This document shows, one piece after another, positions 2,632 through 18,260 of a stretch of DNA of 18,260 bases. How positions within the stretch are numbered: the first letter of the stretch is position 1; each line of letters starts with the position of its first letter. Below the pieces are notes generated by a model. The model was given only the letters and a program-made list of their open reading frames with translations, searched no databases and was not told where the DNA came from. The position numbers were made by a program, and so were the translations under genes. The stretch comes from a virus (Duplodnaviria; Heunggongvirae; Uroviricota; Caudoviricetes), in the IMG/VR virus record IMGVR_UViG_3300039366_000282, positions 1 through 18,260 of that record; one strand, written 5' to 3'.

Positions 2632-2649
2632 ATTTTATAACCCAGATAC

Positions 2650-2676
2650 GGGCGCCAGAAATGGCGCCTTTTTTAT
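2650..2676 (+). terminator. Rho-independent terminator after J
   Basis: GGCGCCA-GAAA-TGGCGCC perfect 7-bp GC-rich stem followed by TTTTTTATT, starting 19 nt after the J stop. Confidence 0.55.
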
Positions 2677-2698
2677 TGCAGAAAAGCGAGAGGTAATT

Positions 2699-3298
2699 AT
2701 GCGTAAATTATGTGCTGTTATTCTGTCCGCAGTAGTCTGGCTGGTTGCCGCTGGTACGCCAGCGAGCGCAGCAGAGCATCAGTCCACACTAAGCGCCGGG
2801 TATCTTCAGACCCATACTGATATGCCAGGCAGCGATGACCTGAAGGGCATTAATGTGAAATACCGTTATGAATTTACGGACACGCTGGGGCTGGTGACGT
2901 CATTCAGTTATGCCAATGCCAAAGATGAGCAAAAAACGCATTACAGCGATACCCGCTGGCATGAAGATTCAGTGCGTAACCGCTGGTTCAGCATGATGGC
3001 GGGGCCATCTGTACGCGTGAATGAATGGTTCAGTGCTTATGCGATGGCGGGTATGGCTTACAGCCGTGTGTCGACCTTCTCCGGGGATTATCTCCGCGTA
3101 ACTGACAACAAGGGGAAAACGCACGATGTGCTGACCGGAAGTGATGACGGTCGCCACAGCAACACGTCTCTGGCGTGGGGGGCTGGCGTGCAGTTTAACC
3201 CGACCGAATCCGTGGCCATTGACCTTGCTTATGAAGGTTCCGGCAGTGGTGACTGGCGCACTGACGGTTTCATCGTGGGTGTCGGTTATAAATTCTGA
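2699..3298 (+). CDS. lom: Lom outer-membrane protein (Ail/Lom family beta-barrel)
   Basis: 199-aa ORF with N-terminal signal peptide (MRKLCAVILSAVVWLVAAGTPASAA), C-terminal ...GVGYKF typical of OMP barrels; matches lambda Lom from memory; RBS GAGAGG 7 nt upstream of ATG; position immediately downstream of J as in lambda. Confidence 0.85.
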   Translation: MRKLCAVILSAVVWLVAAGTPASAAEHQSTLSAGYLQTHTDMPGSDDLKGINVKYRYEFTDTLGLVTSFSYANAKDEQKTHYSDTRWHEDSVRNRWFSMMAGPSVRVNEWFSAYAMAGMAYSRVSTFSGDYLRVTDNKGKTHDVLTGSDDGRHSNTSLAWGAGVQFNPTESVAIDLAYEGSGSGDWRTDGFIVGVGYKF

Positions 3299-3325
3299 TT
3301 AGCCAGGTAACACAGTGTTATGACA

Positions 3326-3351
3326 GCCCGCCGGTTCAGGCGGGCTTTTTT
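3326..3351 (+). terminator. Rho-independent terminator after lom
   Basis: GCCCGCC-GGTTCA-GGCGGGC stem-loop followed by TTTTTT. Confidence 0.55.
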
Positions 3352-3362
3352 GTGGAGTGGAT

Positions 3363-5738: not shown

Positions 5739-6019
5739 TGAAAGATTTAACACTCAAATTTCCCGACAGGGCCGACTTTTCGGCCTTTATGGAGAGCATT
5801 GGCTATTATGATGACGAGTTGATGCAGGATGATATTCTTATTGACGTGATAGGTAACGTGTACAAAGAAACCGGAGAACTGACTGAAGATGGCGAACCGG
5901 TATGTGTTAAGGAAGACGGATATTTTGTAAACGTGCGCATCATTAATGATTCGCAAATATCGTCATTATTCGATGAATACGTGGTTGCTGTTGAGCATCA
6001 ACTTCGTGGCTGGATGTGA
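5738..6019 (+). CDS. Hypothetical 93-aa acidic protein, translationally coupled to the tail-fibre gene
   Basis: ATG overlaps the stf stop (TAATG at 5736-5740); GGGGGAG 8 nt upstream; no family recognised. Confidence 0.5.
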   Translation: MKDLTLKFPDRADFSAFMESIGYYDDELMQDDILIDVIGNVYKETGELTEDGEPVCVKEDGYFVNVRIINDSQISSLFDEYVVAVEHQLRGWM

Positions 6020-6028
6020 GGAAGAAAA

Positions 6029-7069
6029 ATGGCTACATCGACAGTAATTCCTGATGACATCAAAACGCTAAAATCCGACGTTAGCAAATTAAAAAACGAT
6101 CAAGGAAGCTACGCAACAAAATTATATGTAGACAGCAAAGATGAAATCGTTGGTGACTGGTCTGCTTCATGGTATCAGCAGGTATTGCCAACTAGCGGAG
6201 CTATATTTGGGAGAAAACTCCGCTCAACTCACAGGACGGCAGGTGTTGAGGATGCGTATTGCGAACTATACCTCAAAAAATGGATAGACAGTCCAGGTAA
6301 CGCAATGGCGCGCCTTAACCTGAACGATAACGGGACAAACATTTGCTGGGACTTTACCAACCTTTATGGCGGTACGATGATTTTTCCCGGTGACAGCGGA
6401 TACCTCAAAATGGGTAACTGCCTTATGTCATACAGCAAGCGTGGAAGTAACGCGCTTATTAAATTTGATTACACCGACACATTACAGATCAAATATGCCA
6501 ATCATGGGTCAACCATGACATTAAACACACAGGGAACCGCTTATGCTGGTGTTACTGCTCAATTGTGGGGCAACACCAGCCGTCCTGTTGTTTATGAAGT
6601 CGGTGTTGATGGTGGCGCTTATATGTTCTATGCGCAGAAAAATACCGATAACACCTATATGTTAAGCGTTAATGGTGCATGTCATGCCACCGCATTTAAC
6701 CAGCATTCCGACCGGGATCTGAAAGACAACATTCAGGTGATCGATAATGCAACCGACCGCATCCGTAAAATGAACGGCTATACATACACGCTTAAAGAAA
6801 ACGGTATGCCCTATGCTGGTGTCATTGCACAGGAAGCTCTGGAAGCAATCCCAGAAGTTGTAGGTTCCGCAATGAAATATCAGGACGGTGCAAGCGGATC
6901 GGAAGGTGAAGAAGGTGAACGTTATTACACAGTAGATTATTCTGGTGTTACTGGCTTGCTTGTTCAGGTAGCCAGAGAGTCAGACGACAGAATAACAGCA
7001 CTGGAAGAAGAAAACGCAGAATTAAGACAAAGATTATCTGCAATTGAGGCGGCGCTTGCGTCTAAATAA
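6029..7069 (+). CDS. Tail fibre/tailspike-like protein with C-terminal intramolecular chaperone (peptidase S74-type) domain
   Basis: RBS GAGGAAG before ATG; C-terminal region contains ..NQHSDRDLKDNIQVIDNATDRIRKMNGYTYTLKENG..YAGVIAQEALEAIPEVV.. followed by a coiled-coil tail (ALEEENAELRQRLSAIEAA), matching the SD-x-R-LK-x-NI self-cleaving chaperone signature of phage fibres as recalled. Confidence 0.65.
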   Translation: MATSTVIPDDIKTLKSDVSKLKNDQGSYATKLYVDSKDEIVGDWSASWYQQVLPTSGAIFGRKLRSTHRTAGVEDAYCELYLKKWIDSPGNAMARLNLNDNGTNICWDFTNLYGGTMIFPGDSGYLKMGNCLMSYSKRGSNALIKFDYTDTLQIKYANHGSTMTLNTQGTAYAGVTAQLWGNTSRPVVYEVGVDGGAYMFYAQKNTDNTYMLSVNGACHATAFNQHSDRDLKDNIQVIDNATDRIRKMNGYTYTLKENGMPYAGVIAQEALEAIPEVVGSAMKYQDGASGSEGEEGERYYTVDYSGVTGLLVQVARESDDRITALEEENAELRQRLSAIEAALASK

Positions 7070-7075
7070 TATTAA

Positions 7076-7098
7076 GGGGCCGAGCGCCCCGTTTTATT
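7076..7098 (+). terminator. Rho-independent terminator after the fibre module
   Basis: GGGGC-CGAGC-GCCCC hairpin followed by GTTTTATT, 7 nt after the stop at 7069. Confidence 0.55.
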
Positions 7099-7111
7099 GG
7101 GTAGGATGAAA

Positions 7112-7399
7112 ATGGATATAACACCTTTTCTTCATGCGCTTTGTGCTGTGGCTGCGCAGGTACTGGTTGGTTTTTTTACCGGAAACTGGGCTTACGGGGC
7201 GATAGCCGGTTGTACATTCTTCATTGCGCGGGAACACACCCAGGCAGAATATCGCTGGATTGAAATGTTCGGGCATGGCAAGCGGATTAACATGCCGTGG
7301 TGGGGCGGTTTTGATCCACGTGCATGGGATGTGGCAAGCCTGATGGATTTTGCTGTGCCGGTGGTGGCGTGTCTGCTGATCTGGATGTTGATCCGTTAA
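7112..7399 (+). CDS. Small hydrophobic (predicted membrane) protein, ~96 aa, unknown function
   Basis: ORF with two strongly hydrophobic stretches (ALCAVAAQVLVGFFTGNWAYGAIAGCTFFIA and FAVPVVACLLIWMLI); AGGA 5 nt upstream of ATG 7112 (track start 7097 is TTG; 7106 is an alternative ATG). Confidence 0.45.
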   Translation: MDITPFLHALCAVAAQVLVGFFTGNWAYGAIAGCTFFIAREHTQAEYRWIEMFGHGKRINMPWWGGFDPRAWDVASLMDFAVPVVACLLIWMLIR

Positions 7400-7747
7400 A
7401 TATAAAAAGTAAAAAGCCGCAGTAACTTGTCATGATAGGATACTGCGGCTGGCTGGTTAACTTTCGATAGTGCGAGTATTGAATGATTTCCAGCCGTTAC
7501 CGATTTTATATAACTGCAGTGGAATTATTCAACACACAGGCAAAACGGAATAAGCTGAGAAAAAAGCGTGCTTACCCAATCTGGGGTAAATCACGTCTGA
7601 ATGACACCTGAAAACAGGTGGTGGCCTCAAGAAGGCTTGGAATATTCTTCTTTAATGTTATGTAATTTATTGATTTTTCGTGTACGATTTTAAGACATTT
7701 ATTCCAAGAAAAATTTTTAACTCTTTGATTTTTCGACTCTGTATCAT

Positions 7748-7809
7748 CGGTCTCGAAAACCGGAGTAGGGGCAACTCTACCGGGGGTTCAAATCCCCCTC
7801 TCTCCGCCA
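7748..7809 (+). tRNA. Partial tRNA-Ser(CGA) (serU-type), 3' 62 nt only, without 5' acceptor/D-arm; att-core duplicate at the prophage boundary
   Basis: Anticodon stem-loop CCGGT-CTCGAAA-ACCGG (anticodon CGA), long variable arm, T-arm GGGGG-TTCAAAT-CCCCC, 3' acceptor strand TCTCTCC + G + CCA; no matching 5' strand (GGAGAGA...) upstream; matches E. coli serU 3' portion from memory. Confidence 0.75.
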
Positions 7810-8087
7810 ATCATTCAACAAAATCAATCACTTACAAAGCATTTTTGATTTTGTCGTGCATAAATCCCTGCATTAAAATTCCTTTCTCTCGCTCAATTTT
7901 TCTTACTACTGATGCTGTTTTTTACCATTTTGCCGCGCGTCGGGCATCCACTTTTATGCTCTCGAGTTCACACTCTTAACAACAACTTAGCCATTCCCCC
8001 GTCTCTGATGACAAAACAGTTGAACTTCAATTGTTCCAAACGGATCCTGTGAAGATATATCAAAGGAAATGGATTGTTGGAGGATGG

Positions 8088-8924
8088 ATGAAAAGAAGTG
8101 AAATCAGGAAAGCACTGGAAGCATGGTTTGATGTGGAACGCTATGAGGCGATAGAGAAACTCACCTTACAGCAGTTTTATGTTGAGGTTGAGCGGCGCAT
8201 CTTGGCTTACAGAATGTTGTTGAGCCGGAACACCATACCTACCTTTAACCGATTAATGCTGGATGATTACCGCAACAAGATCCTCAGCGGTGAAATCTTT
8301 TTCAGTGGTGATACTGAGACCATTGGATATGAGCTTGCCAGAACCTATGCGGTAAACCCTACGACAAGAAGCCACGCGCAATTTTATGCGAAAACTCTGT
8401 CATTAACCGAAGCCACGCCTGAACTCTCTGGGTTAAGCCAGTCTGAATTTCTGTCCGAATATCTGAAAGAGACATCCCTTAATAATCTTTCACGCATTAC
8501 TGTCGATATTCATCTGGAAGAAGCATCAACCGAAGAGATCATTGAACATCTGAAAGTGCTGATCCCTCAATGGAAGAGGCAGCTTAAGATGACGTCTCCA
8601 GCTCCAAGAGAGTATCGTTTCGGCAAAAGCACGTTCAGAAAAATTATTGAATATCGTCTTATCCCGATGATGGACCTGATCTTCTGGGGAGAAGATAACG
8701 GCATTAAAATCCCGCTTTCACTGATTTCCTCGTTGCTTCATGAGGACAGCGACAACGATCGTGATGAAGGAATGCTCAAGGCAACAGATTACCCGTTAGC
8801 AATGGCTTTTCTGACGGATGCGAGCTATCTGAAATCGCTTGAAGATTACATGATGGAAAACAACCACTTGAAAGACTCCCCTGTTGAAAAGCATGTAGAA
8901 GACGACAGGAATAAGAAAAAATAA
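8088..8924 (+). CDS. Hypothetical protein (278 aa from ATG 8088)
   Basis: Long ORF; track start 8031 is TTG; GGAGGA lies just upstream of ATG 8088; no family recognised. Confidence 0.5.
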   Translation: MKRSEIRKALEAWFDVERYEAIEKLTLQQFYVEVERRILAYRMLLSRNTIPTFNRLMLDDYRNKILSGEIFFSGDTETIGYELARTYAVNPTTRSHAQFYAKTLSLTEATPELSGLSQSEFLSEYLKETSLNNLSRITVDIHLEEASTEEIIEHLKVLIPQWKRQLKMTSPAPREYRFGKSTFRKIIEYRLIPMMDLIFWGEDNGIKIPLSLISSLLHEDSDNDRDEGMLKATDYPLAMAFLTDASYLKSLEDYMMENNHLKDSPVEKHVEDDRNKKK

Positions 8925-9140
8925 GCCAAGTAAAAAGGGTTACGTTCGCTCCGTGCGAACGTGATCGCATCCAGTGTCAACCGTTATCTTTCCATCCGTG
9001 CCCCTTCGAATTTTTCAAAAAAAACTTATTTGAACGTCCCTAAATTGTCATAAGCAAAATCGCTATCATTGTTCACGTCGAAACAACATAGAGAAAAGCG
9101 AAATCTCATAGAGATTACTTACAATAATAGAGGACAGACA

Positions 9141-9359
9141 ATGAAAGAAAATAATGAAACCAGCGTAAAACGATTTATCCGCGTTCCTGATGTTTTAAAT
9201 CGAGTGGGATTTAGTCGCACGACTTTATATGAACGTATTAAGGAAGGAAACTTTCCAGACAGAGTAAAAATAGGGCCAAGATGTGTCGCCTTTGTCGAAA
9301 GTGAGATTGATGAATGGATTGAAGCGGCTATTCGAAACTCACGCCAGAACGCAGCATAA
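9141..9359 (+). CDS. AlpA-family phage/island transcriptional regulator (small HTH)
   Basis: 72-aa product ..FIRVPDVLNRVGFSRTTLYERIKEGNFPDRVKIGPRCVAFVESEIDEWIE.. matches the AlpA/prophage CP4-57 regulator pattern from memory; RBS AGAGGA before ATG 9141. Confidence 0.7.
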   Translation: MKENNETSVKRFIRVPDVLNRVGFSRTTLYERIKEGNFPDRVKIGPRCVAFVESEIDEWIEAAIRNSRQNAA

Positions 9360-9440
9360 AAACAGAAACAAGATCTCGTGTCGAACAGATATCTGTTCGC
9401 TCAGGGCATCTTATTATCCTAAACAATAATGGAGAAAAAT

Positions 9441-9731
9441 ATGAAGATAGAGCTTATTACGACAAAACAGTTTATTGAACAAGCCGAATGTTATTTCAGG
9501 CGCTATATGGACGGATTGCGGAGGAATGCACCAGATGATTTTTATTATTTTCTCAACAATAAATACAATATGAATGACATTATGGAAAGTATCATTAAAA
9601 AAACGAGATATCATTTTTACGATGACACAGAAGAAAACCAAAGGAATCGGATTTATGGAGAAGTAAGCCACTGTAAGGTAAAACAACACCTTCGTCAGCT
9701 TTGGATTATCTATAAGTGTGTATACCGCTAA
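9441..9731 (+). CDS. Hypothetical small protein (96 aa)
   Basis: ORF with GGAGA 5 nt upstream of ATG 9441 (track start 9429 also possible); AT-rich; no recognised family. Confidence 0.4.
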   Translation: MKIELITTKQFIEQAECYFRRYMDGLRRNAPDDFYYFLNNKYNMNDIMESIIKKTRYHFYDDTEENQRNRIYGEVSHCKVKQHLRQLWIIYKCVYR

Positions 9732-9783
9732 TATTTATACAAATATTTTGCTATTCCAATATTAAACTAAAGAGGAAATAAAA

Positions 9784-10080
9784 ATGAATACATTTAAAAA
9801 TAAAACTACTAAAATCTTTTATGTTGTGTCCTTGCATATCTATGCGGAGCTTTTTAACTCAAAGGATAAAACGACCAGTAATATGATTATAACGCATGTA
9901 ATGGATCATGAGTTTGTTTGTAAGCTAATCGATCTGGCGATGAGAAATGCTGAAAAGCATCTTCTGAAAAAAGCATGGAAAAAGAACGCGGCTGAAAAAC
10001 TATCTGAGGTGGATTTTAAAGAGGTTAGGCAGGCATTAGCCAAAATGCACTACACTGTTCTGGCGGAATCAATATGTTGA
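9784..10080 (+). CDS. Hypothetical small protein (98 aa)
   Basis: ORF preceded by strong RBS AAAGAGGAAATAAAA-ATG; no recognised family. Confidence 0.4.
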   Translation: MNTFKNKTTKIFYVVSLHIYAELFNSKDKTTSNMIITHVMDHEFVCKLIDLAMRNAEKHLLKKAWKKNAAEKLSEVDFKEVRQALAKMHYTVLAESIC

Positions 10081-10152
10081 TATGTTCTGGTGTCTATCTG
10101 CCCCTTCTTGGGGCTGATAACAAATATTATTTTTCTATCCAAGGAGCAAAAA

Positions 10153-10395
10153 ATGACTGATGAATTTCATGTGATGTATATGTATAAAAAAATCCAAGCG
10201 GAAGCCGTAACTACTGACATCAAAACACTTGAACAGCTTTTGAAAAAGTTCAGGAGCGTTGTCAACGAACGTCGTGAAGAATACTATCAGGAGATTGGTG
10301 AGAAAAAAGCGCATAAGTTGAAAATGAAAAGATTACAAAGAATGCTTGAGAAAATGGCGTGTGACCGAGTCTCGCCAGAAGATCTCATTGACTGA
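10153..10395 (+). CDS. Hypothetical small charged/helical protein (80 aa)
   Basis: RBS AAGGAG 6 nt upstream of ATG 10153 (track ORF starts earlier at 10090 without an RBS); product lysine/glutamate-rich. Confidence 0.4.
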   Translation: MTDEFHVMYMYKKIQAEAVTTDIKTLEQLLKKFRSVVNERREEYYQEIGEKKAHKLKMKRLQRMLEKMACDRVSPEDLID

Positions 10396-10443
10396 TAAGT
10401 GTTCTGTATAATAACTTATCTATATAAAAACATGGAGGTGGTT

Positions 10444-10833
10444 ATGGGCTGGGAGCTTCACATAGTAAGAACGGAACATTGGTTCGATAGCGCAAGTGTT
10501 CCAATCAGTAGTGAAGAATGGCTCCAGCTTGTTAATGATGATAAAGAACTATCCATAGATAACAAGAACGGTGATTTTTTCGCCATATGGAGTGGTCAAA
10601 GTGAACTCGATGAACCTTGGCTTGACTGGAGTGATGGAAGAATTTCAACAAAACATCCTGACGAAGCCCTTTACTGTAAAATGTTGCAGATAGCTGAGAA
10701 GCTACATGCTGTAGTCGTTGATGAGGATGATCACAAATATTCGCTACCAAGTGACCTGATGAATCCTTCATGGGCGAATTCATCACTGACTGATAAAAAA
10801 CAAACTTTATGGAAAAGGTTGTTTTCAAAATAG
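10444..10833 (+). CDS. Hypothetical protein (129 aa, Trp/Asp-rich)
   Basis: RBS GGAGGTGG before ATG 10444 (MGWELHIVRTEHW...); track ORF starts at 10399. Confidence 0.45.
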   Translation: MGWELHIVRTEHWFDSASVPISSEEWLQLVNDDKELSIDNKNGDFFAIWSGQSELDEPWLDWSDGRISTKHPDEALYCKMLQIAEKLHAVVVDEDDHKYSLPSDLMNPSWANSSLTDKKQTLWKRLFSK

Positions 10834-11139
10834 TTTTGTCAAGTATTCAGGGAATAGCAATGGCACGCCGAATTGATCTTCATGAAATTGTTAACGCTCT
10901 CAACGGGAGCTTTGTTAGTCGAAACAACGACTTTAGAAGATACGGGGCTATTGGGCAGTTAAAATCATTGGCTATCTGTATTAGCTCAGACTTGATCTGG
11001 TGGTTTTCACTGGTAGCACACTATCAAATCTGACAGTCTGCTATGAGCGAGGAGCGGAAGTTAGTACCTCCGATGCTATAGCGCAGCGTTCTTAATTATG
11101 TAAAAATATTCTACCATTCAAGTAAAGTAAGTGAAAACA

Positions 11140-12057
11140 ATGGAATTTAAACTTGATCTAAAATCCAATGCTTTAGATAGTTTTAATGAAGCCATCAAAA
11201 AATTCCAGCAAGGAGAAAATGGAGATTATAAAGCTTTCAAGTTTGCTATACTACATTTGTCTCATTGTTTTGAGTTGACGTTGAAAATGTATATTCAAAC
11301 ATTAGACGAAAACTTGATTTTTTCAAAATGCTACAGAGCAGTAATAGAGCGTGCCAAAAGTGACAAAGTCAATCTTATTGAAGCTTTTTATAAAATGGAG
11401 GCTGAAGAATTCGACTTTGAAGAACTTATTAAAGGACATAAAAATCCTCATACTATTACTTTGGATCAAGCAATATCGATAGCTACACATGAAAAGTGTA
11501 GCATAACCTCAGTGGACTTAGTTGATAAAGAGTTACTAGATGATATCGCTTGGATGAAAGATCTTAGAAATTCAATTGAGCATTACGAATTCTCGTTTAC
11601 TATTAAATATGTTCGTCTGGCAATGGGGCGTTTGGTCAGAGGGTTGGCTGAGTTCTCTGATATATTTGGTTTATACGATCTAGATAAAGAAGTTTCTAAG
11701 GAAATATCTAATTCCTATAATATACTTTCTGACGAATATGAGCATAATGTTCATGAAGGTTATCTTGATGTAGCTGATGCTAGAAAAGCAGCATTTCTTG
11801 GGGTTAGACCAAAGTTTTTTGAGTTAGTTAATTGGAAAGAATATATCTGCGATTACTGTGGTCATGAGACAATGATTCAAAATAACGATTCTACTTCAGG
11901 ATATCGTTGTACGTATTGCGGTGCCGAAGACTCAGGCTCAATTGAAGTCACATGTGATGTTTGTGGTGCTGAATGGCCTGAAGAGGAAATGAGTTCTTGG
12001 CTTGGGGAGGGGACTAACACTTGTCCTGACTGTAGAGATATTAGCAACAAACCATGA
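11140..12057 (+). CDS. HEPN-like (R-x4-H) domain protein with C-terminal four-CxxC zinc-ribbon region; candidate abortive-infection/RNase effector
   Basis: 305 aa from ATG 11140 (track GTG 11131 alternative); helical N-terminal region ending in ..WMKDLRNSIEHYEF.. (R-N-x3-H at nt 11566-11583); C-terminus carries CDYC, CTYC, CDVC, CPDC pairs; RBS weak. Confidence 0.55.
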   Translation: MEFKLDLKSNALDSFNEAIKKFQQGENGDYKAFKFAILHLSHCFELTLKMYIQTLDENLIFSKCYRAVIERAKSDKVNLIEAFYKMEAEEFDFEELIKGHKNPHTITLDQAISIATHEKCSITSVDLVDKELLDDIAWMKDLRNSIEHYEFSFTIKYVRLAMGRLVRGLAEFSDIFGLYDLDKEVSKEISNSYNILSDEYEHNVHEGYLDVADARKAAFLGVRPKFFELVNWKEYICDYCGHETMIQNNDSTSGYRCTYCGAEDSGSIEVTCDVCGAEWPEEEMSSWLGEGTNTCPDCRDISNKP

Positions 12058-12326
12058 CTAAGATTAATCCTTGATTGAAGATGCATTCTTGTCCGCCTCT
12101 CATGTTTTATAATGTATAATGCTTCTGGCATTATAGCGTGAGAGGCGGAAGATATTGTTAACCGAATTGGCAAGCCTAATTTATAACATTATTGCTAATA
12201 TGGAGGAATAGATTTCTGTTCATCCGCTTACATGGAGTATATACTGTAAACCTTACATCCTTTGAATAAACGGGATGGGAGGCGTCCATCCTGTTTAAGA
12301 TCTCCATCATAAAGATTAAAAATTTC

Positions 12327-12851
12327 TTATTCTTCTGAAGTAAGCATCTTCTCCTGATGGGGGTGATACTTATATGCATAATTAAAGAGGGTCAGATCTA
12401 GTTCAAACGTTTCTCGCATACCATCCATCGTTACGGACGTATTCAGTAATCCACGACGGGCCAGAGATTCTACACCCGGTTCAGGATCATCAAGCCTATT
12501 CATTTGTCCCCATGTCATAACAGAACCACCATGCGTCACAAAGTGCATGACTACTTCTTTTTCTCTTCCAGTCAGAGAATTATAAAGCGTTGCCAGTCGT
12601 TTTTCTGCAACTGCCTCTCCCTTGCGGGTAATAATTCGCAGATATAATCCTCCCGCAATAATCTTTACAACCGGAAAAATAATAACAAAAGAAAACAGAG
12701 TCAGTACATAATCGCGAAGAATAAGATAACAGGTAACTCCTGCGATTCCGGAGACAAATATTGCGATGTTAATGCTGAAGTCTTTCTCCGAATAAACACG
12801 ATCAAACATTTTTTCAAGAAATTCTGTCACGATTTCATTCCTTGTTAACAC
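12327..12851 (-). CDS. Hypothetical membrane protein (two predicted TM helices near N-terminus, soluble C-terminal domain)
   Basis: Minus-strand ORF; hydrophobic segments FSINIAIFVSGIAGVTCYLIL and LTLFSFVIIFPVVKIIAGGLYL; start ambiguous (GTG 12851 or ATG 12809, neither with a clear SD). Confidence 0.45.
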   Translation of the reverse strand: MLTRNEIVTEFLEKMFDRVYSEKDFSINIAIFVSGIAGVTCYLILRDYVLTLFSFVIIFPVVKIIAGGLYLRIITRKGEAVAEKRLATLYNSLTGREKEVVMHFVTHGGSVMTWGQMNRLDDPEPGVESLARRGLLNTSVTMDGMRETFELDLTLFNYAYKYHPHQEKMLTSEE

Positions 12852-13283
12852 TAAAGATGCTCGAGTGGGTATGAATATACCGCAATAGTGCGGGAGGATT
12901 TCATTAGTGTCCCATCAAAATCTGGCTTGAACTGGCTATTGAGTCGCTAATCATTATAAATTTTAGCTGTCAATACTACCATAATAAATAGCAGCATTCT
13001 CAAGAGTTGTGGCGAACGCAACAAAACTCTCCCCAACAACCCGCTTGTAAAGATGCTTTTATACTTCTAACGTCCGCTCTTGGCACGGAGTTGCCTGTCA
13101 AATTAGGTTTAGATCTGTGCGATAGCTGTGTCAGGTCAAATCTGAGCTAATAGAGCTATCGATACCGGCGTCACTTCGATGAGGTTTTCTCTCATAGCCG
13201 AGAGCGACACCCTCTCTTCGCACGTAGGATTTTCTTTGGGAGAGAACAAAAACCGCCAAATTTGGTTGACGGCTTTATTGTGA

Positions 13284-13688
13284 TCAGAGCGCGAAGTCTT
13301 CCAGCGTTTTACCAGCTTCGATAGCAGCAGCGATCGCTTTAGGAGTACGGCCTTGACCTGTCCAAGTCTGCTCATTACCATTTTCATCTGTATATTTGTA
13401 TTTAGCAGGACGAGGAGCACGAGTTGATTTGGCTTTAGGCTGGGATGAACTAACAGCAGCAAGGAGTTCTGCCGGATCAATGCCATCTTCTAACAGTTTC
13501 TGGCGGAAGGCTTCCAGTTTAGCCTGACGTTCTTCTTGTTCTTTACGGGCTGAATTTTCTTCCTCACGGCGATCTTCAACGACAGCAGAGAGCTTTTCCA
13601 GCATCTCTTCCAGAGTTGTCAGATCTGTTTCACGAGCATGTGCGCGAAGTGTACGAATATTGTTCAGTGCCTTGAGAGCTTCACTCAT
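13284..13688 (-). CDS. H-NS family nucleoid-associated protein (island-encoded H-NS/StpA paralog)
   Basis: 134-aa product [28 protein letters not shown].. with C-terminal DNA-binding motif [12 protein letters not shown] and ..[12 protein letters not shown]..; matches E. coli H-NS/StpA from memory. Confidence 0.85.
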
Positions 13689-13844
13689 AGTATGTCATCC
13701 GGTGTTTTAAAATGGGCGATTAATAAAAATAATGCTTACGGTGATGTTGGAAAAATCAAAAAAACAGTCAGTAAATAATATAGTAAACATTATCGTTTAA
13801 GCAATCTAATACATCTCATTTCACACGAATAACATAGGAGTGCT

Positions 13845-14324
13845 TTAAAGAGACATTTTCCTGCGCTTCTGGCTTGATGGCTCGAACTCTGACGAGATGC
13901 GAGATAGCTGGTCAAGACTGTATTCAATTGAACGCTGGAACTCAACAGCGGCTTCTGTGCGTTGTTTTATGACCAAGGCTACTATTTCTTCATCACTCTT
14001 TTCTGAAATAGCCTTACGGTATAACACGCGTTCGTTAAATAAATCGAGATTTCCTGATGATTTGGCTGATGTGTTAGCTTTTGAACTGCTGATAGGATTT
14101 AGCTCATCAATAAAGTATTCAATAAGCGATTCTCTCTTTTTATCCAGCCTGCGAAGTTCGGTATGTGCGGACTTAAATTTCTGAGCTTTTATCAATGGAA
14201 TATCATCAGAACGCAGTTTGCGATATTCATTTCTGTATTCTTCTATCGGAATATGGTTTTTTAGTTCTTTGACTGTATTTACGTATTCGATTAAATCACT
14301 GTTGTCTGTTTTTACTTTTCTCAT
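13845..14324 (-). CDS. Hypothetical protein (159 aa, charged/helical)
   Basis: Minus-strand ORF with GAGG 9 nt upstream of ATG 14324; no recognised family. Confidence 0.45.
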   Translation of the reverse strand: MRKVKTDNSDLIEYVNTVKELKNHIPIEEYRNEYRKLRSDDIPLIKAQKFKSAHTELRRLDKKRESLIEYFIDELNPISSSKANTSAKSSGNLDLFNERVLYRKAISEKSDEEIVALVIKQRTEAAVEFQRSIEYSLDQLSRISSEFEPSSQKRRKMSL

Positions 14325-14600
14325 AAGAAATACCTCGTAGATAAAATAGTTGATATATTTATATTACGAGATATGGTGCAGGTGTCAAATTTATGGGGCT
14401 GGGCGCTATTTTTGTATTTTACTTTTAGCTACTGTTTCTTTTGAGAAGAACCGAGAGTTAAATGTGCCGTTCTTAGTCAGTATCTTAGCGTCCACTAATA
14501 ATTTTAACCGTTCTTCATCGGTTCTCTTAGCCGCTAATTTTTTCACCTTTTTTGTCAGATCTTCAATATCTATTATTTACATCCTTATCTTTTAAGTTGT

Positions 14601-15401
14601 TTAAACAATCTGAGGTGTTTTATACTGTTCAAAAATAAGATTTCCTGAATATGTATAAATTTCTATTTTTCCTACTTTACCATCAGTGCCTTTTATCGAG
14701 AAACGAATTAATCTTTCATTATAATATTTTTCTAACAAGTCTGGTCGTTCAGTAAAATATCTTGATTTTGTTGAGCGATCTTTCAGATAGTCGCAGCTTG
14801 AACAAACCTGCTTTTTGAAATCCTTCTCAGATAAACCACTTTCTTTTATTTTTAAAGAAATAAAAGCCTTTAAAGGTCGTTCATATTCATCTCTTTCTTT
14901 TGCTTTGCGTATTTGTTCTTCTTTCTTGCGCTGTTCTTCAATACGGTAAAGTCTGCCTTGTTCTTCCTGCGCTCGTATTATATCCTCTTGAATCATTTTA
15001 CTGATGATTGAGGCAGGAACAACACTGATACCTTCAGACCACCCCTGATAAGGATTATTGTTTTGTATATTTCGGACTGTAGCAGATATTCTGTCTATAT
15101 CCAGTTCTTTATCAAAGGAAACAATGCGTTGTCTGTTTTCTTTTGATATGAGCTTAGCCGTGTTTACCGGGGATTCCAGACCCTTTAATTTGAATGTAGC
15201 TACGGCACTGTTGCGACTTCTATAATATAATGCTTGTTTCTTATCTCCAATATAACATTCAAGGTAAGAGAAAATCTTAAACTCCTGAATGCCAAATGTT
15301 TCCTCAAGCATGGTCATCTGCTCAGCCAATATATTTAGTATATCACTCTTGGATAGTTTTTCGTGGAGCTTAATCTCAAGCGAACCGGGTAGTTTTTTCA
15401 T
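14601..15401 (-). CDS. Hypothetical protein (266 aa), second gene of minus-strand operon
   Basis: Minus-strand ORF; AAGGA 7 nt upstream of ATG 15401; 27-bp gap to the upstream gene; central lysine/glutamate-rich helical segment; no recognised family. Confidence 0.5.
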   Translation of the reverse strand: MKKLPGSLEIKLHEKLSKSDILNILAEQMTMLEETFGIQEFKIFSYLECYIGDKKQALYYRSRNSAVATFKLKGLESPVNTAKLISKENRQRIVSFDKELDIDRISATVRNIQNNNPYQGWSEGISVVPASIISKMIQEDIIRAQEEQGRLYRIEEQRKKEEQIRKAKERDEYERPLKAFISLKIKESGLSEKDFKKQVCSSCDYLKDRSTKSRYFTERPDLLEKYYNERLIRFSIKGTDGKVGKIEIYTYSGNLIFEQYKTPQIV

Positions 15402-15428
15402 TGTTATTTCCTTGTTGTTGTTATTTTA

Positions 15429-16163
15429 TCAGGATACTTTCTGCATATGAGAGTCGGCGTCAACAGCGTTTCTTCTTGCTTCCTCATTTTCCTTTGTTCT
15501 TTTATATACTTTTCGTGGTTTATCAATATGTATGCTGTTATTTGTATTAGGAACAGCATTATTCTTTTTCTTCTTACTGAAAACAAATGCGTCAGTATAG
15601 ATTTCTTTGGTCTCAGTTTCTAAGGATAGGGTTCTTCTTTCACTTTTTGACATAGCTGAATAACTTTCTGGATACTGTTCTATTTCTGCGCAAAGATTGC
15701 GAGCGTTGCTCAACTGTTCTTTACGTTTCTGATCCAGTTGGTGACTCATTCCTTTAGCGAAAATGTTAGAGTTGATATAGAGATGACCATGATGCTCGAC
15801 GAGTATTCCTTTCTGTCTGAGTTTTTTAAAAATGTTAGACATATTACCGGAAGCGATGTTCAGTGCTTTACACAGCGATGATTGCGAAAGATTGATCAGA
15901 TTTCCAAACTCCATATACTCCAGAATATAGGTTAATACACGGAATTCATTCTTGGATATGTCAAGATCAGAGAAGACACGAAAGTTGGAAGTAAAAGCAA
16001 ATACATAAGGTTGTGAAAACGATATAGCTTTATCTTCCTCAGAAGAAATAACTGTCGTTGATTTTATTTCTTTGTTTTGTAGCAAGCGTCTTGCGATATC
16101 AATCTTTTGTTCTGTAGTTAATGATTCAAATAAGTGTAATAGATCAGCATCTGGTGTATTCAT
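15429..16163 (-). CDS. Winged-helix DNA-binding protein, RepL-like (putative replication initiator or regulator)
   Basis: 244 aa from ATG 16163 (track start 16226 would lie upstream of the predicted promoter); segment ..ISKNEFRVLTYILEYMEFGNLINLSQSSLCKALNIASGNMSNIFKKLRQKGILVEHHGHLYINSNIFAKG.. resembles RepL-type wHTH proteins as recalled; repeated palindromes upstream. Confidence 0.5.
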   Translation of the reverse strand: MNTPDADLLHLFESLTTEQKIDIARRLLQNKEIKSTTVISSEEDKAISFSQPYVFAFTSNFRVFSDLDISKNEFRVLTYILEYMEFGNLINLSQSSLCKALNIASGNMSNIFKKLRQKGILVEHHGHLYINSNIFAKGMSHQLDQKRKEQLSNARNLCAEIEQYPESYSAMSKSERRTLSLETETKEIYTDAFVFSKKKKNNAVPNTNNSIHIDKPRKVYKRTKENEEARRNAVDADSHMQKVS

Positions 16164-16197
16164 ATTATTCTCTCTTATTATTTTTGTTATATATATT

Positions 16198-16226
16198 TTA
16201 ATACTATGCAAAAAAGTGAAAGTCAA
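16198..16226 (-). promoter_or_regulatory. Putative sigma70 promoter for the minus-strand operon (TTGACT-17-TATTAA)
   Basis: On the minus strand, -35 TTGACT (16221-16226) and -10 TATTAA (16198-16203) are separated by 17 nt, about 35 nt upstream of ATG 16163. Confidence 0.4.
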
Positions 16227-16287
16227 TAGTAGAACTATAAATAAAATAGGAAGTATATTCTTATGACAATGTTATATGTTAAAAAAA

Positions 16288-16371
16288 CTATGTTCGAACA
16301 TAGATCTTGCTATGTTCGAACATAGGACGGATCTATGTTTGAACATAGGAGTTTGCTATGTTCGAACATAG
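16288..16371. promoter_or_regulatory. Array of four 16-bp palindromes CTATGTTCGAACATAG (one with a single mismatch) at 22-23-bp spacing; putative operator/iteron array
   Basis: Perfect palindromes at 16288-16303, 16310-16325, 16356-16371 and CTATGTTTGAACATAG at 16333-16348; located 60-150 bp upstream of the predicted promoter of the RepL-like gene. Confidence 0.6.
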
Positions 16372-16627
16372 GAAAAAAAGTTGTGAAGCCGCGATTTTAC
16401 TGGTCCGGGACTATGCTTATAATTAAATAATTAGTAAGAAGTTAAGAGAGTCCAGTTTTACTTTTGCGTTATGTTTTAGTGGTTTTACAGGGGGTATTGT
16501 ATTCCTTAATAACTGCTATCAGCGAAGTGATTGTTTCGAACAATCACGAACCGCTGCTTTTATTGCGAGAGCTTAATTAAGATTTCTTTTGTTTTATTAG
16601 CGTCTACGACGCGATCTTTTTTTGGAT

Positions 16628-16790
16628 AAATCCATCATTAACAGGGGCAAGCCCTGTCCAGCAAAGTGATTGTTGCCAACAATCACGAAGTGCTGCTACT
16701 AAGGATATAGTTTTCCTATGTGTTTAAGAGCAAATGCTATATGTCAGAGGGAATATCATGTTCGCATAGGATCTGAATTCTAACTTGGTG
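16628..16790 (+). repeat. Copy 1 of a ~160-bp non-coding direct repeat module
   Basis: aaatccatcattaacaggggcaagccctgtccagcaaagtgattgttgccaacaatcacgaagtgctgctactaagg... recurs at 17124 at roughly 90% identity (period 496 bp); contains the palindrome GTGATTGTT-GCC-AACAATCAC. Confidence 0.8.
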
Positions 16791-17123
16791 GAGGGAATGA
16801 TCTTTATACTGATCGCTTTGTTGTCCATTGATAAAATATTAATGCATTATAGCTGAACAAGGAAAATAGTTTTATACCAGTATTAGGGGCGTAGCCGTGC
16901 GCCAGCACAATGTATGTATTTTCAAAAAAATAATTGAATGTATCAGGTAAAAATAAATATCAATAAATGTAAGTAAGAGTGTTCTGTAAACTGTTAATAA
17001 ACCGCACAGGAAGTGTGGTAAGGATTTGGGATCTGAAAGATAACACATATAACCATCTTCACGCTTAAAGCTCTTATAACTGATTACAGGCAGTAATTTA
17101 TATGGGAAAAATTATTAATTGAA

Positions 17124-17286
17124 AAATCCATCATTAACAGGGACAAGCCCTGTCCAGCAAAGTGATTGTTGGCAACAATCACGAAGTGCTGCTACTAAAG
17201 ATATAGTTTTCCTATACGTTTAAGAGCAAATGCTATATGTCAGATGGGGAATGCTATGTTTAAAAATAGGATCCGAATTAAAAGTT
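17124..17286 (+). repeat. Copy 2 of the ~160-bp non-coding direct repeat module
   Basis: Near-identical to 16628-16790; palindrome GTGATTGTT-GGC-AACAATCAC at 17162-17182; hairpin CAGGG-ACAAG-CCCTG. Confidence 0.8.
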
Positions 17287-17520
17287 AAAAGGAAAATAGA
17301 TCTGACTATGAGCGAATACATTCGCTTATTAGCTCATAGTAGTAAAATAAAATACAAAATGTCAGTTTTAGGGCGTAGCCGTGCATAAGCACAGAGATAA
17401 AAATCTTTTCAAAAAGAAGTTTAATAATAAGAAGTAAAATCATTAATAAATGAAAATATATTTGATTTTTACACTTGCGATAGAGTATTAAACAGTAATA
17501 AATAAAAAAAGGAAAATATA

Positions 17521-17790
17521 ATGAATAATATCAAAATGATCACACTCTTCCATCCACATGACAAAACACCATTTATGATCTGTATTGTAAACACAGTAGA
17601 AGATACAGAACTTGGATTGAAATTAACTCTTGAAAACGGCAACAGCATTTGTGTCAATAACTATGACCATTATCTGTTATCAGAGTCTGTAAGTCGTTGT
17701 GATAAAGACAGGGTGAAAAATATTTATATCCGTTTGGTTTCAGAACTCACACAGATGAGTGAAGAAACTATAAAATCACAGATGTTATAA
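17521..17790 (+). CDS. Hypothetical small protein (89 aa)
   Basis: ORF with RBS AGGAAAATATA-ATG; possible promoter TTGATT-18-TATTAA at 17462-17491; no recognised family. Confidence 0.4.
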   Translation: MNNIKMITLFHPHDKTPFMICIVNTVEDTELGLKLTLENGNSICVNNYDHYLLSESVSRCDKDRVKNIYIRLVSELTQMSEETIKSQML

Positions 17791-17873
17791 AACATCTATA
17801 AAAGCATAATAAATATTTTTGATATTACGATTAGTTGCATGGTATTAAATAAAAACAATAACAGGAAAATATC

Positions 17874-18260
17874 ATGAGAAAAATAAAAACAAAAATCTAC
17901 TTGCCTACAGCTTTAACAGGAAACATGGATAAACACTATATCCCTGTTTTAGAGGATTTAAGAAAAACGATATACAGCGACAGAATGTTATCAAGGCTTG
18001 CAGATAGCGGCAATATTGTTATCCATAGTTCAGTTGGGTATCCGGTTGCTAAGTATAAAAACACGGGGATTAGCATAGGCATAGAACCATTAAATCCGAT
18101 GATAAGACAAGATCTGACTCTTGGATATATCGTGGTAGTCAGAAACGGAAAAGCATCACAGGAGATTAATGGTTTACTTAACAGGTCATTGCCAAAAGCG
18201 ATAAGCACTTTTAAGGACCATATTAATGAATATGAAGCAGCAAAAAGTAAAATGCGATAA
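17874..18260 (+). CDS. Hypothetical protein (128 aa)
   Basis: ORF with RBS CAGGAAAATATC-ATG (same context as the preceding gene); stop TAA at the window end. Confidence 0.4.
   Translation: MRKIKTKIYLPTALTGNMDKHYIPVLEDLRKTIYSDRMLSRLADSGNIVIHSSVGYPVAKYKNTGISIGIEPLNPMIRQDLTLGYIVVVRNGKASQEINGLLNRSLPKAISTFKDHINEYEAAKSKMR

What the first reader, a model, noticed from the sequence alone, without database searches (positions are those of the whole stretch)
16288..16371. Four phased copies of the perfect palindrome CTATGTTCGAACATAG
Perfect 16-bp palindromes repeated at 22-23-bp centre-to-centre spacing are unlikely by chance and indicate cooperative binding of a dimeric DNA-binding protein on one helix face. 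The central GTTCGAAC also appears in the first copy of the 21-bp palindrome (gtgattgtTTCGAAcaatcac at 16527-16547), so one protein may recognise both element types.
Basis: seen in the sequence. Interest (0 to 1): 0.5.

Follow-up and report, generated by a model that had tools for sequence, protein, structure and literature searches.

The report
Replication-origin repeats inside a genomic island
The four phased palindromes are most likely the binding repeats ("iterons") of a small-plasmid-type replication module, sitting next to its initiator gene inside a ROD21-like genomic island of E. coli; this is a known kind of module in a place where it had not been recognised.

Summary
The array is real. 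Palindromes lie at 16288, 16310, 16333 and 16356 (spacing 22/23/23 bp); three are perfect and one has a single C>T change. Shuffles never reach this number of matches.

It lies 125-208 bp upstream of a winged-helix gene (15429-16163, minus strand), the E. coli counterpart of Salmonella ROD21 SEN1990, in an EARL-family island.

- **Family link:** this protein is a clear homologue of the Rep initiators of pHW126-like small plasmids (pHW126, pIGRK, pIGMS31).
- **Published origin:** their origin is a conserved region (CR) plus four 20-bp iteron-like repeats at a 22-bp period upstream of rep.
- **Shared layout:** the window has four repeats starting about -210 from the ATG, a CR-like motif 61 nt beyond them, and a CTATTGACT -35 box.
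- **Conservation:** the arms CTATG/CATAG stay invariant across about ten genera, while rep synonymous sites are saturated.
- **Covariation:** the predicted recognition helix changes together with the repeat arms across the family.

The adjacent Rep most likely binds them as dimers, for origin function and rep control. Replication of the island is inferred, and the one published knockout saw no effect. The idea that the same protein reads the 21-bp palindromes is not supported. I rate it a new member of a known kind.

The parts
16356..16371 (.). Repeat IT1 (farthest from rep, next to the CR-like block): CTATGTTCGAACATAG
   Evidence: It starts at -208 from the rep ATG in nearly all related loci.
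16333..16348 (.). Repeat IT2, the variant copy: CTATGTTTGAACATAG (one C>T change)
   Evidence: The same variant sits at this position in strain ECONIH4 and in Salmonella Dublin. Other genera have TGCGCA or TTTAAA centres here.
16310..16325 (.). Repeat IT3: CTATGTTCGAACATAG
16288..16303 (.). Repeat IT4 (nearest rep): CTATGTTCGAACATAG
   Evidence: It ends 125 bp before the rep start codon. The same gap of 123-127 bp is seen in 45 metagenomic loci.
15429..16163 (-). rep: a 244-aa winged-helix protein, the SEN1990 homologue, annotated RepL. It is the proposed binder of the repeats.
   Evidence: Pfam RepL 20.9 bits and HTH_36. tblastn to pHW126-like plasmid Reps gives E 4e-31 to 5e-12. hhalign gives E 6e-49. 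dN/dS is 0.02-0.11. The AF2 secondary structure shows a wHTH at residues 71-130, at low confidence.
16198..16226 (-). Predicted rep promoter: -35 TTGACT (16226-16221), a 17-nt spacer, -10 TATTAA (16203-16198). A CATAG half-site lies in the spacer.
   Evidence: Read from the sequence. The CTATTGACT context is unique in the window, invariant in 20 loci and shared with pIGRK and pHW126. The consensus scan did not call it, because the -10 ends in A.
16235..16249 (-). Iteron-like inverted repeat CTATTTTATTTATAG just upstream of the -35 box; a candidate Rep operator
   Evidence: Nearly invariant block in the 20-locus alignment. L024 has CTATATTTTAATATAG at the same place. In pIGMS31 the IR operators resemble the iterons (bioRxiv 10.1101/2022.12.05.519187).
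16414..16452 (-). Invariant block GACTCTCTTAACTTCTTACTAATTATTTAATTATAAGCA, with the CR-like core CTCTTAACTTCTTAC at 16434-16448
   Evidence: Invariant in 18 loci and mostly kept in L024. The plasmid-derived pattern YTCTTANNTTCTTAY hits only here in the window. It lies 61 nt from IT1, against 58-67 nt in five plasmids.
16396..16423 (+). Promoter-like site TTTACT-16-TATAAT pointing away from rep. Its -10 lies inside the invariant block.
   Evidence: 10 of 12 matches. The -10 is conserved. Function and any equivalence to the Rep-activated P_MS4/P_RK3 promoters are not established.
16520..16558 (.). Two-tier hairpin (the 21-bp palindrome plus an outer stem CAGCG/CGCTG), about 70 nt beyond the CR-like block; a possible ssi-like element
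   Evidence: single-stranded DNA dG -11.5, z -4.6; outer-stem covariation; conserved position. Further copies lie at 16659-16697 and 17155-17193.
17254..17269 (.). Solitary degenerate iteron-like palindrome CTATGTTTAAAAATAG, inside the duplicated ~130-bp unit
   Evidence: It is a perfect CTATGTTTAAACATAG at the equivalent place in Pectobacterium, Dickeya, Salmonella and Nissle loci.

Best explanation
The four palindromes are the iteron-like Rep-binding repeats (IT1-4) of a pHW126-type replication module carried by an EARL/ROD21-family genomic island.

The module, read in the direction of rep, is:
1. hairpin(s);
2. a conserved CR-like block;
3. four 16-20-bp dyad repeats at a 22-23-bp period;
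4. an AT-rich stretch with an iteron-like inverted repeat;
5. a TTGACT promoter;
6. rep (15429-16163).

Proposed mechanism:
- Dimers of the adjacent winged-helix Rep (the SEN1990 homologue) recognise the arms CTATG and CATAG of each repeat. The centre acts as a spacer.
- Four dimers load about two helical turns apart.
- In the plasmid relatives this complex, together with CR, is the minimal origin. It is also an incompatibility determinant and it feeds back on the rep promoter. The same roles are proposed here for the excised, circular island.

Status of each step:
- **Shown here:** the array, its conservation, the homology of the protein and of the module layout, and the covariation between protein and site.
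- **Shown only in plasmid relatives (literature):** Rep dimerisation, binding to IT1-4, origin function, autoregulation and nicking.
- **Inferred:** that this Rep binds these sites, and that the island uses them to replicate.
For: **1. Adjacency and fixed geometry.** In 20 of 20 loci retrieved through the protein, the repeats start at about -208, -185, -162 and -140 from the ATG.

**2. Selection.** The arms are invariant from Escherichia and Salmonella to Pectobacterium, Dickeya, Brenneria and Enterobacter, while rep dS is 1.3-2.9. Spacers and centres vary: 1.98 bits for the arms against 1.32 bits for the spacers. ECONIH4 keeps all four repeats although the surrounding non-coding DNA is only 82.5% identical.

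**3. Homology to characterised initiators.**
- tblastn to small pHW126-like plasmids gives E 4e-31 to 5e-12.
- Profile-profile comparison gives E 6e-49 over 142 columns.
- Several of these 2.3-3.1-kb plasmids encode nothing else that could be a Rep.

**4. Same architecture in the plasmids.**
- Four 20-bp repeats at a 22/23-bp period start 200-230 bp before the ATG.
- A CR-type motif lies 58-67 nt before IT1, against 61 nt here, and it is unique in the window.
- The -35 box has the same CTATTGACT context.

**5. Covariation of helix and arms.**
- SGNMSN goes with CTATG.
- K(K/T)(S/A)NMSV goes with GTTATG.
- KSNVSY goes with GTTATAG or GTTAT.
- KST(V/M)(S/C)K goes with GTTG(A/T)C.

**6. Site-first test.** In metagenomes, every four-copy array of this geometry with enough flank has the Rep gene 123-127 bp away, in 45 loci.

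**7. Literature.**
- CR plus IT1-4 is the minimal origin.
- Rep binds IT and forms dimers.
- IT is an incompatibility determinant and modulates Prep.
- Sources: PMC6854812; bioRxiv 10.1101/2022.12.05.519187; PMC2831885.
Against: - There are no binding data for this subfamily.
- In ROD21, deleting SEN1990 changed neither the island copy number (about 1 per chromosome) nor the amount of excised island. The only reported phenotype was lower oafB expression (PMC10655114).
- The plasmid EMSAs on IT fragments were weak (pIGMS31) or gave aggregates that the authors could not call specific (pIGRK).
- The structure model is poor (mean pLDDT 52), so the recognition-helix assignment rests on secondary structure and on alignment.
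- The CR motif was derived by me from plasmid sequences. pIGRK and pHW126 themselves match it only loosely, and an nhmmer profile of the plasmid CR region did not find it.
- No free plasmid carries the CTATG-type module, so autonomous replication of this lineage is unproven.
- Arrays persist in strains where rep is cut by IS3.
Confidence: 0.8

Rival explanations
1. The array is only a transcriptional operator. The module has been domesticated, so that the wHTH protein acts purely as a regulator of its own promoter, of the divergent promoter at 16396-16423, and of host genes such as oafB, with no replication role.
For: - The SEN1990 knockout showed no copy-number or maintenance effect but did change oafB expression (PMC10655114).
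- In the plasmids, IT1-4 also modulates Prep, and Rep is an autorepressor (PMC6854812).
- The array lies between two divergent promoter-like sites.
Against: - The whole origin layout is kept intact over deep divergence: the CR-like block at the plasmid distance, four repeats, the fixed spacing and the hairpin. A simple operator would not need all of this.
- The nearest repeat is about 60 bp upstream of the -35 box, and a separate iteron-like inverted repeat sits at the promoter itself.
- The knockout was tested only under laboratory conditions, with about 3% excision.
Confidence: 0.15
2. The array is part of the island's origin of transfer or a relaxosome accessory site. The authors of the SEN1990 study suggested that the long intergenic region might hold the unidentified oriT.
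For: - The non-coding region is long, weakly transcribed and rich in hairpins (PMC10655114).
- The island encodes a MobQ relaxase, TraD and a type IV pilus.
Against: - The relaxase gene lies about 16 kb away in NZ_CP031215, whereas oriT usually adjoins its relaxase.
- The same four-repeat arrangement occurs next to rep in non-mobilisable plasmids, and in plasmids with MOBV relaxases whose oriT lies elsewhere (PMC2831885).
- The repeat arms covary with Rep, not with a relaxase.
Confidence: 0.03
3. The array is a centromere-like partition site, or a binding array for another island protein such as AlpA or an H-NS paralogue.
For: - Arrays of phased repeats are typical of plasmid centromeres.
- The island encodes AlpA and two H-NS-family proteins.
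Against: - No ParA/ParB-type gene lies in the neighbourhood.
- Plasmids of 2.3-3 kb that lack AlpA, H-NS and partition genes have the equivalent arrays.
- Strict 123-127-bp linkage to rep and covariation with the helix point to Rep.
Confidence: 0.02

Closest known systems
REP module of pHW126-like plasmids (pHW126 of Rahnella; pIGRK and pIGMS31 of Klebsiella)
   Same: - The Rep is homologous, with a central wHTH.
- Four roughly 20-bp repeats at a 22-23-bp period start 200-230 bp before the ATG.
- A CR-type motif lies about 60 nt beyond IT1.
- The -35 context is CTATTGACT.
- Iteron-like inverted repeats lie at the promoter, and a hairpin lies beyond CR.
   Different: - The module sits in a chromosomal genomic island of more than 30 kb, not in a 2-3-kb plasmid.
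- The repeat arms are CTATG/CATAG, and most repeats are perfect palindromes.
- Rep has a 90-aa C-terminal extension unlike the plasmid tails.
- The hairpins are unrelated in sequence to the plasmid ssi and occur in 2-5 copies.
- Replication has not been demonstrated, and the ROD21 knockout was negative (PMC10655114).
SEN1990 of Salmonella ROD21 (EARL island family)
   Same: - It is the same protein family. The 90%-identity cluster of a protein 98% identical to the window's includes S. Enteritidis and S. Dublin members.
- A Salmonella Dublin locus has the identical array and gene order.
   Different: - The published work treats SEN1990 as a wHTH regulator without characterised homologues.
- It does not mention binding sites, palindromes or pHW126-like plasmids.
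Classical iteron theta replicons (Rep_3 initiators such as R6K pi and related RepA/RepE proteins)
   Same: - Phased 22-bp repeats lie upstream of a winged-helix initiator gene.
- They combine incompatibility and autoregulation.
- The authors of the pIGRK study draw the same analogy (PMC6854812).
   Different: - There is no Rep_3 domain.
- From general knowledge of those systems, their iterons are asymmetric and bound by monomers, whereas here each repeat is a dyad.
- DnaA-box matches are at chance level.
- Marine Rep_3 plasmids happen to share the arms CTATG...CATAG but have an unrelated Rep.
SGI1 replicon (an integrative mobilisable island with a plasmid-like replicon)
   Same: It is a genomic island that carries a plasmid-type replication module, which is silent in the integrated state (PMC7826253, PMC7433901; titles and abstracts seen).
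   Different: Replication of SGI1 depends on IncC helper plasmids. No sequence relationship to SGI1 was tested here.
Firmicute RepL (pSN2 family; Pfam PF05732)
   Same: There are marginal Pfam matches for the window protein and for the plasmid Reps, at 20-25 bits. A superfamily link was proposed in PMC2831885.
   Different: Identity is below 19% (PMC10655114). The score sits at the threshold, and no comparable four-repeat origin was examined here.

Membership tests
pHW126-like replication (REP) module | A Rep initiator homologous to those of pHW126, pIGRK and pIGMS31, with a central wHTH | tested here: met
   tblastn gives E 4e-31 to 5e-12 and 30-49% identity over the core. The alignment is. 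hhalign gives probability 100% and E 6e-49. A wHTH secondary-structure pattern appears at residues 71-130 (low confidence).
pHW126-like replication (REP) module | Four roughly 20-bp iteron-like repeats separated by 2-nt spacers (22-bp period) upstream of rep | tested here: met
   There are four copies with spacing 22/23/23. In a 20-mer frame the array starts at -210 from the ATG, against -200 to -230 in eight plasmids.
pHW126-like replication (REP) module | A conserved region (CR) next to IT1 that forms the minimal origin together with IT1-4 | tested here: met
   The motif YTCTTANNTTCTTAY was taken from plasmids L025, L028, L030 and L032. It occurs once in the window (16434-16448, rep strand), 61 nt from IT1, against 58-67 nt in the plasmids, and it lies in an invariant block. 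Caveats: the papers' text does not print the CR sequence, so equating my motif with their CR is an inference. pIGRK and pHW126 match it only loosely, and nhmmer did not recover it.
pHW126-like replication (REP) module | An ssi-like palindromic element beyond CR (not essential for replication; prevents multimer formation) | tested here: inconclusive
   A stable two-tier hairpin lies about 70 nt beyond the CR-like block. It has no sequence similarity to the plasmid ssi (the GAGGGGTTGGCC motif is absent) and it is present in several copies.
pHW126-like replication (REP) module | A strong sigma-70 rep promoter with nearby IR/DR operators; Rep autorepresses | tested here: inconclusive
   The sequence features are present: TTGACT-17-TATTAA, the shared CTATTGACT context, and the iteron-like inverted repeat CTATTTTATTTATAG. 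Promoter strength and autorepression cannot be tested with these tools.
pHW126-like replication (REP) module | Rep binds IT1-4 and CR, nicks the origin and supports replication in trans | not testable with these tools
   This is known only for the plasmids (PMC6854812; bioRxiv 10.1101/2022.12.05.519187; PMC2831885). The ROD21 knockout showed no replication phenotype (PMC10655114).
pHW126-like plasmids (the element as a whole) | A small autonomous plasmid of about 2-3 kb | tested here: not met
   All 737 E. coli matches are chromosomal. The island context is shown. The only PLSDB record with a close homologue is 4.8 Mb long, which is chromosome-sized. The window therefore carries the module but is not such a plasmid.
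EARL (ROD21-like) genomic islands | An island next to a tRNA gene with AlpA-type RDF, DUF6387, H-NS paralogues, a SEN1990 homologue, a MobQ relaxase, TraD and type IV pilus genes | tested here: met
   Pfam and annotation support this. Gene content matches the description of ROD21 in PMC10655114. The integrase end of this island was not examined.
Classical Rep_3 iteron replicons | An initiator with Rep_3 WH1-WH2 domains | tested here: not met
   There is no Rep3_N or Rep3_C match. The marine look-alike plasmids do have these domains.

The most novel reading that the evidence does not exclude
EARL/ROD21-family islands of Salmonella, E. coli, Pectobacterium and relatives carry a complete, selectively maintained pHW126-type replicon: a SEN1990-type Rep, a CR-like block and four CTATG-N6-CATAG iterons. 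After excision the island would replicate as a plasmid, with the iterons setting copy number and incompatibility between related islands. The negative knockout result would then reflect the rarity of excision under laboratory conditions.
Probability: 0.4. Interest if true: 0.6.

Novelty: new member of a known kind. Interest (0 to 1): 0.45.

Why it matters
- **A testable site for SEN1990.** SEN1990-type proteins are conserved in a widespread family of pathogenicity and fitness islands and have been linked to virulence. Their DNA target and their characterised relatives were reported as unknown. This analysis gives a concrete predicted binding site (CTATG-N6-CATAG, four copies).
- **A link to studied initiators.** The protein connects to an experimentally studied initiator family.
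- **A new question about the islands.** The islands may be replicative elements, as has been shown for SGI1 and several ICEs.
- **A wider range for the family.** The pHW126 replicon family would extend from cryptic mini-plasmids to chromosomal islands.
- **A specificity code.** The covariation table is a starting point for understanding how these winged-helix initiators choose their sites.

Tried and rejected
- **Rfam.** A search of 7000-18260 found nothing relevant; the array scored only as a sub-threshold miRNA-like hairpin.
- **NCBIfam.** It gave no family for Rep or its neighbours.
- **Structure.** The AlphaFold2 model from 16 sequences was poor (pLDDT 52), so I ran no fold search. A PDB sequence search found only weak HTH hits with E above 0.1.
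- **CR by profile.** An nhmmer profile of the plasmid CR region did not find the CR-like block. Its best hit (E 0.029) was at 16618-16651 in the duplicated unit. A hand-derived motif was then used instead.
- **DnaA boxes.** Matches are at chance level.
- **Phages.** The phage collection has no homologue of Rep.
- **Terminator reading.** flags IT3 and IT4 plus a T-run as a terminator-like site on the minus strand. I rejected this reading because the T-run is absent in L022, L024 and the plasmids, while the repeats remain.
- **Nissle 1917.** The Nissle 1917 island has an unrelated RepL-family protein and no array, so it gives no test of the model.
- **Left unexamined.** The 22 metagenomic loci with only a pair of palindromes, and the five viral-contig hits, were not looked at.

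Full report
**Observation.** Reading 15300-17400 and a mismatch search confirm four copies of a 16-bp palindrome at 16288, 16310, 16333 and 16356, spaced 22, 23 and 23 bp. Three copies are perfect (CTATGTTCGAACATAG). The copy at 16333 has one C>T change. None of 200 dinucleotide-preserving shuffles gives five matches at up to 3 mismatches (mean 0.08). The fifth match is a degenerate solitary copy at 17254. The 21-bp palindrome at 16527-16547 is also real, but it shares only TTCGAA with the 16-mer, not GTTCGAAC.

**Context.**
- The window joins lambdoid tail genes (1 to about 7400) to a low-GC island.
- The island encodes DUF6387, AlpA, H-NS paralogues, DUF4756, a 266-aa protein and a 244-aa winged-helix protein (15429-16163, minus strand) that PGAP calls RepL.
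- In NZ_CP031215 the same island lies beside tRNA-Ser and continues with DotA/TraY, a MobQ relaxase, TraD and a PilV shufflon pilus.
- This gene content is that of the EARL (ROD21-like) islands. The winged-helix protein belongs to the family of Salmonella SEN1990.
- A Salmonella Dublin locus has the identical array and gene order.
- The array lies 125-208 bp upstream of this gene, at the start of a 1.35-kb non-coding region.

**Conservation.**
- I retrieved loci through the protein, not through the DNA motif.
- All 15 genome loci with a homologue at 80% identity or more have exactly four palindromes. They come from Escherichia, Citrobacter, Brenneria, Pectobacterium, Dickeya, Buttiauxella, Mangrovibacter, Phytobacter, Enterobacter and Symbiopectobacterium.
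- The palindromes start at about -208, -185, -162 and -140 from the start codon.
- In the alignment of 20 upstream regions, the arms CTATG and CATAG are essentially invariant. The four central bases change, often symmetrically (TTCGAA, TTTAAA, TGCGCA, with TTCAAA and TTTGAA as intermediates), and the spacers drift.
- Over the same comparisons, rep synonymous sites are saturated (dS 1.3-2.9) while dN/dS is 0.02-0.11. Both the protein and the arms are therefore under purifying selection.
- Strain ECONIH4 keeps all four repeats, including the variant third copy, although its non-coding region is only 82.5% identical.

**Identity of the module.**
- A tblastn search of plasmids shows that the protein is related to the only plausible Rep of a group of 2.3-3.1-kb enterobacterial plasmids, at 30-49% identity over the winged-helix core and E 4e-31 to 5e-12.
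- The group includes pHW126, pIGRK and pIGMS31 and a circular 2.7-kb contig.
- Profile-profile comparison gives E 6e-49.
- These plasmids are experimentally studied. Their REP module consists of an ssi-like palindrome, a conserved region (CR), four 20-bp iteron-like repeats with 2-nt spacers (IT1-4), IR/DR operators, a strong promoter and rep.
- CR plus IT1-4 is the minimal origin.
- Rep is a dimeric wHTH protein that binds IT and the operators, represses its own promoter and, in pHW126 and pIGMS31, nicks DNA.
- IT1-4 is an incompatibility determinant. Both rolling-circle and theta intermediates are seen.
- Sources for these properties: PMC6854812; bioRxiv 10.1101/2022.12.05.519187; PMC2831885.

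The window reproduces this layout:
- four repeats in a 20-mer frame start at -210, against -200 to -230 in eight plasmids, with a 22/23-bp period;
- a CR-type motif taken from the plasmids (YTCTTANNTTCTTAY) occurs once in the window, on the rep strand, 61 nt beyond IT1, against 58-67 nt in the plasmids;
- that motif lies inside a 39-bp block that is invariant in 18 loci;
- the -35 box has the same CTATTGACT context;
- an iteron-like inverted repeat (CTATTTTATTTATAG) lies just upstream of the promoter;
- a stable hairpin lies beyond the CR-like block.

**Who binds.**
- Each plasmid repeat is also a dyad, but with different arms. Examples are AGTTATG-N6-CATAACT, AGTTGAC-N6-GTCAACT, GTTATAG-N4-CTATAAC and GTTGGT-N6-ACCAAC.
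- In an alignment of 11 Reps, the start of the predicted recognition helix sorts with the arms.

| Start of recognition helix | Repeat arm | Where seen |
|---|---|---|
| SGNMSN | CTATG | three islands, 56-100% identical |
| K(K/T)(S/A)NMSV | GTTATG | plasmids |
| KSNVSY | GTTATAG or GTTAT | plasmids |
| KST(V/M)(S/C)K | GTTG(A/T)C | plasmids |

- The closest plasmid Reps (about 48% identity in the core) also have the closest arms (TATG...CATA).
- As a site-first test, I scanned metagenome contigs for a pair of CTATG-N6-CATAG sites 6-7 bp apart, which gave 76 loci.
- Of these, 45 encode the Rep homologue, always 123-127 bp from the array.
- Eight arrays of four or more copies lack it. Two lie at contig ends. 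Four are marine Rep_3 plasmids with perfect 22-bp iterons that share the arms by coincidence. Two are unrelated tandem repeats.

**Mechanism.**
- I conclude that dimers of the adjacent Rep bind the four dyads about two helical turns apart.
- I also conclude that this block, together with the CR-like element, is the origin and copy-control region of a pHW126-type replicon embedded in the island.
- The block would also feed back on rep transcription.
- Binding and origin function are inferred from homology and covariation.
- The one relevant experiment, deletion of SEN1990 in ROD21, changed neither copy number nor the excised fraction under laboratory conditions (PMC10655114). Current replicative use is therefore uncertain, and a purely regulatory role is the main rival.

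- oriT, partition and AlpA or H-NS binding are unlikely. The same arrangement occurs in mini-plasmids that lack those functions, the relaxase gene lies about 16 kb away, and the arms track Rep.
This fails because the shared TTCGAA is the variable part of both elements.
- The 21-bp palindrome is the inner stem of a 39-nt two-tier hairpin. Its outer stem covaries (A:T in 28 and G:C in 22 of 60 unique copies) and its loop is free to vary.

**Novelty.**
- The plasmid papers do not mention genomic islands.
- The SEN1990 paper states that the protein has no characterised homologues, and it mentions neither binding sites nor pHW126-like plasmids.
- Within the literature I could search, the link is therefore new. 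The element itself is a new member of a known kind of replication module.

**Dead ends.** These were Rfam, NCBIfam, a low-confidence AF2 model, the PDB sequence search, nhmmer for CR, DnaA boxes and the phage collection.

Noticed in passing
window 16520-16558, 16659-16697, 17155-17193: Three copies of a 39-nt two-tier hairpin, CAGC[G/A]AA-GTGATTGTT-loop-AACAATCAC-GAAN[C/T]GCTG. EARL islands carry 2-5 copies. The fifth outer-stem pair covaries (A:T in 28 and G:C in 22 of 60 unique copies) and the loops vary. This suggests a structure formed in single-stranded DNA or RNA, possibly ssi-like.
   Followed up: partly
window 16625-16751 and 17121-17247; solitary palindromes at 16754-16769 and 17254-17269: A duplicated unit of about 130 bp (94% identical) ends in a solitary iteron-like palindrome that is decayed in this window. 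The palindrome is a perfect CTATGTTTAAACATAG in Pectobacterium, Dickeya and Salmonella loci, and also in the E. coli Nissle 1917 island. That island has an unrelated 193-aa RepL-family protein and no four-copy array, so the role of the solitary site is unexplained.
   Followed up: partly
window 16887-16909 and 17371-17393: The motif GGGCGTAGCC-GTGC-nnnn-GCAC-A is repeated. It has a conserved 4-bp stem and a variable loop, and it is also present in Nissle 1917 and ECONIH4. Its function is unknown.
   Followed up: no
window 16396-16423 (+) to 16600-16622 (+): A promoter-like site has its -10 inside the invariant CR-like block. A terminator-like hairpin with a T-run lies about 180 nt downstream. 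Together they could give a short non-coding transcript that runs through the CR-like block and the first hairpin.
   Followed up: no
window 1-7400 and 7755-7806: Lambdoid tail genes (J-like, Lom, side tail fibre and assembly proteins) directly abut the island. A short stretch with weak tRNA/tmRNA 3'-end-like Rfam hits lies at the junction. In NZ_CP031215 the same island borders tRNA-Ser and mtfA instead.
   Followed up: no
L039, L046, L089, L102 (marine metagenome contigs): Rep_3-type plasmids carry four perfect 22-bp iterons, CTATGACAAAACATAGCCGTTA. The arms are the same as in the window's repeats, but the initiator is unrelated, so this looks like convergence on the motif.
   Followed up: partly
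L004 (STEC1575) 1005-3000; record NZ_CP063341 (hit H11): IS3 insertions split the rep gene in some E. coli strains, while the four repeats stay perfect.
   Followed up: no
window 14601-15401 (-): A 266-aa protein without any Pfam or NCBIfam match follows rep in all close island loci, and a 276-aa ORF sits at the same position after the 61%-identical rep of L024. It could be a further module component. It carries internal stops in two strains.
   Followed up: no
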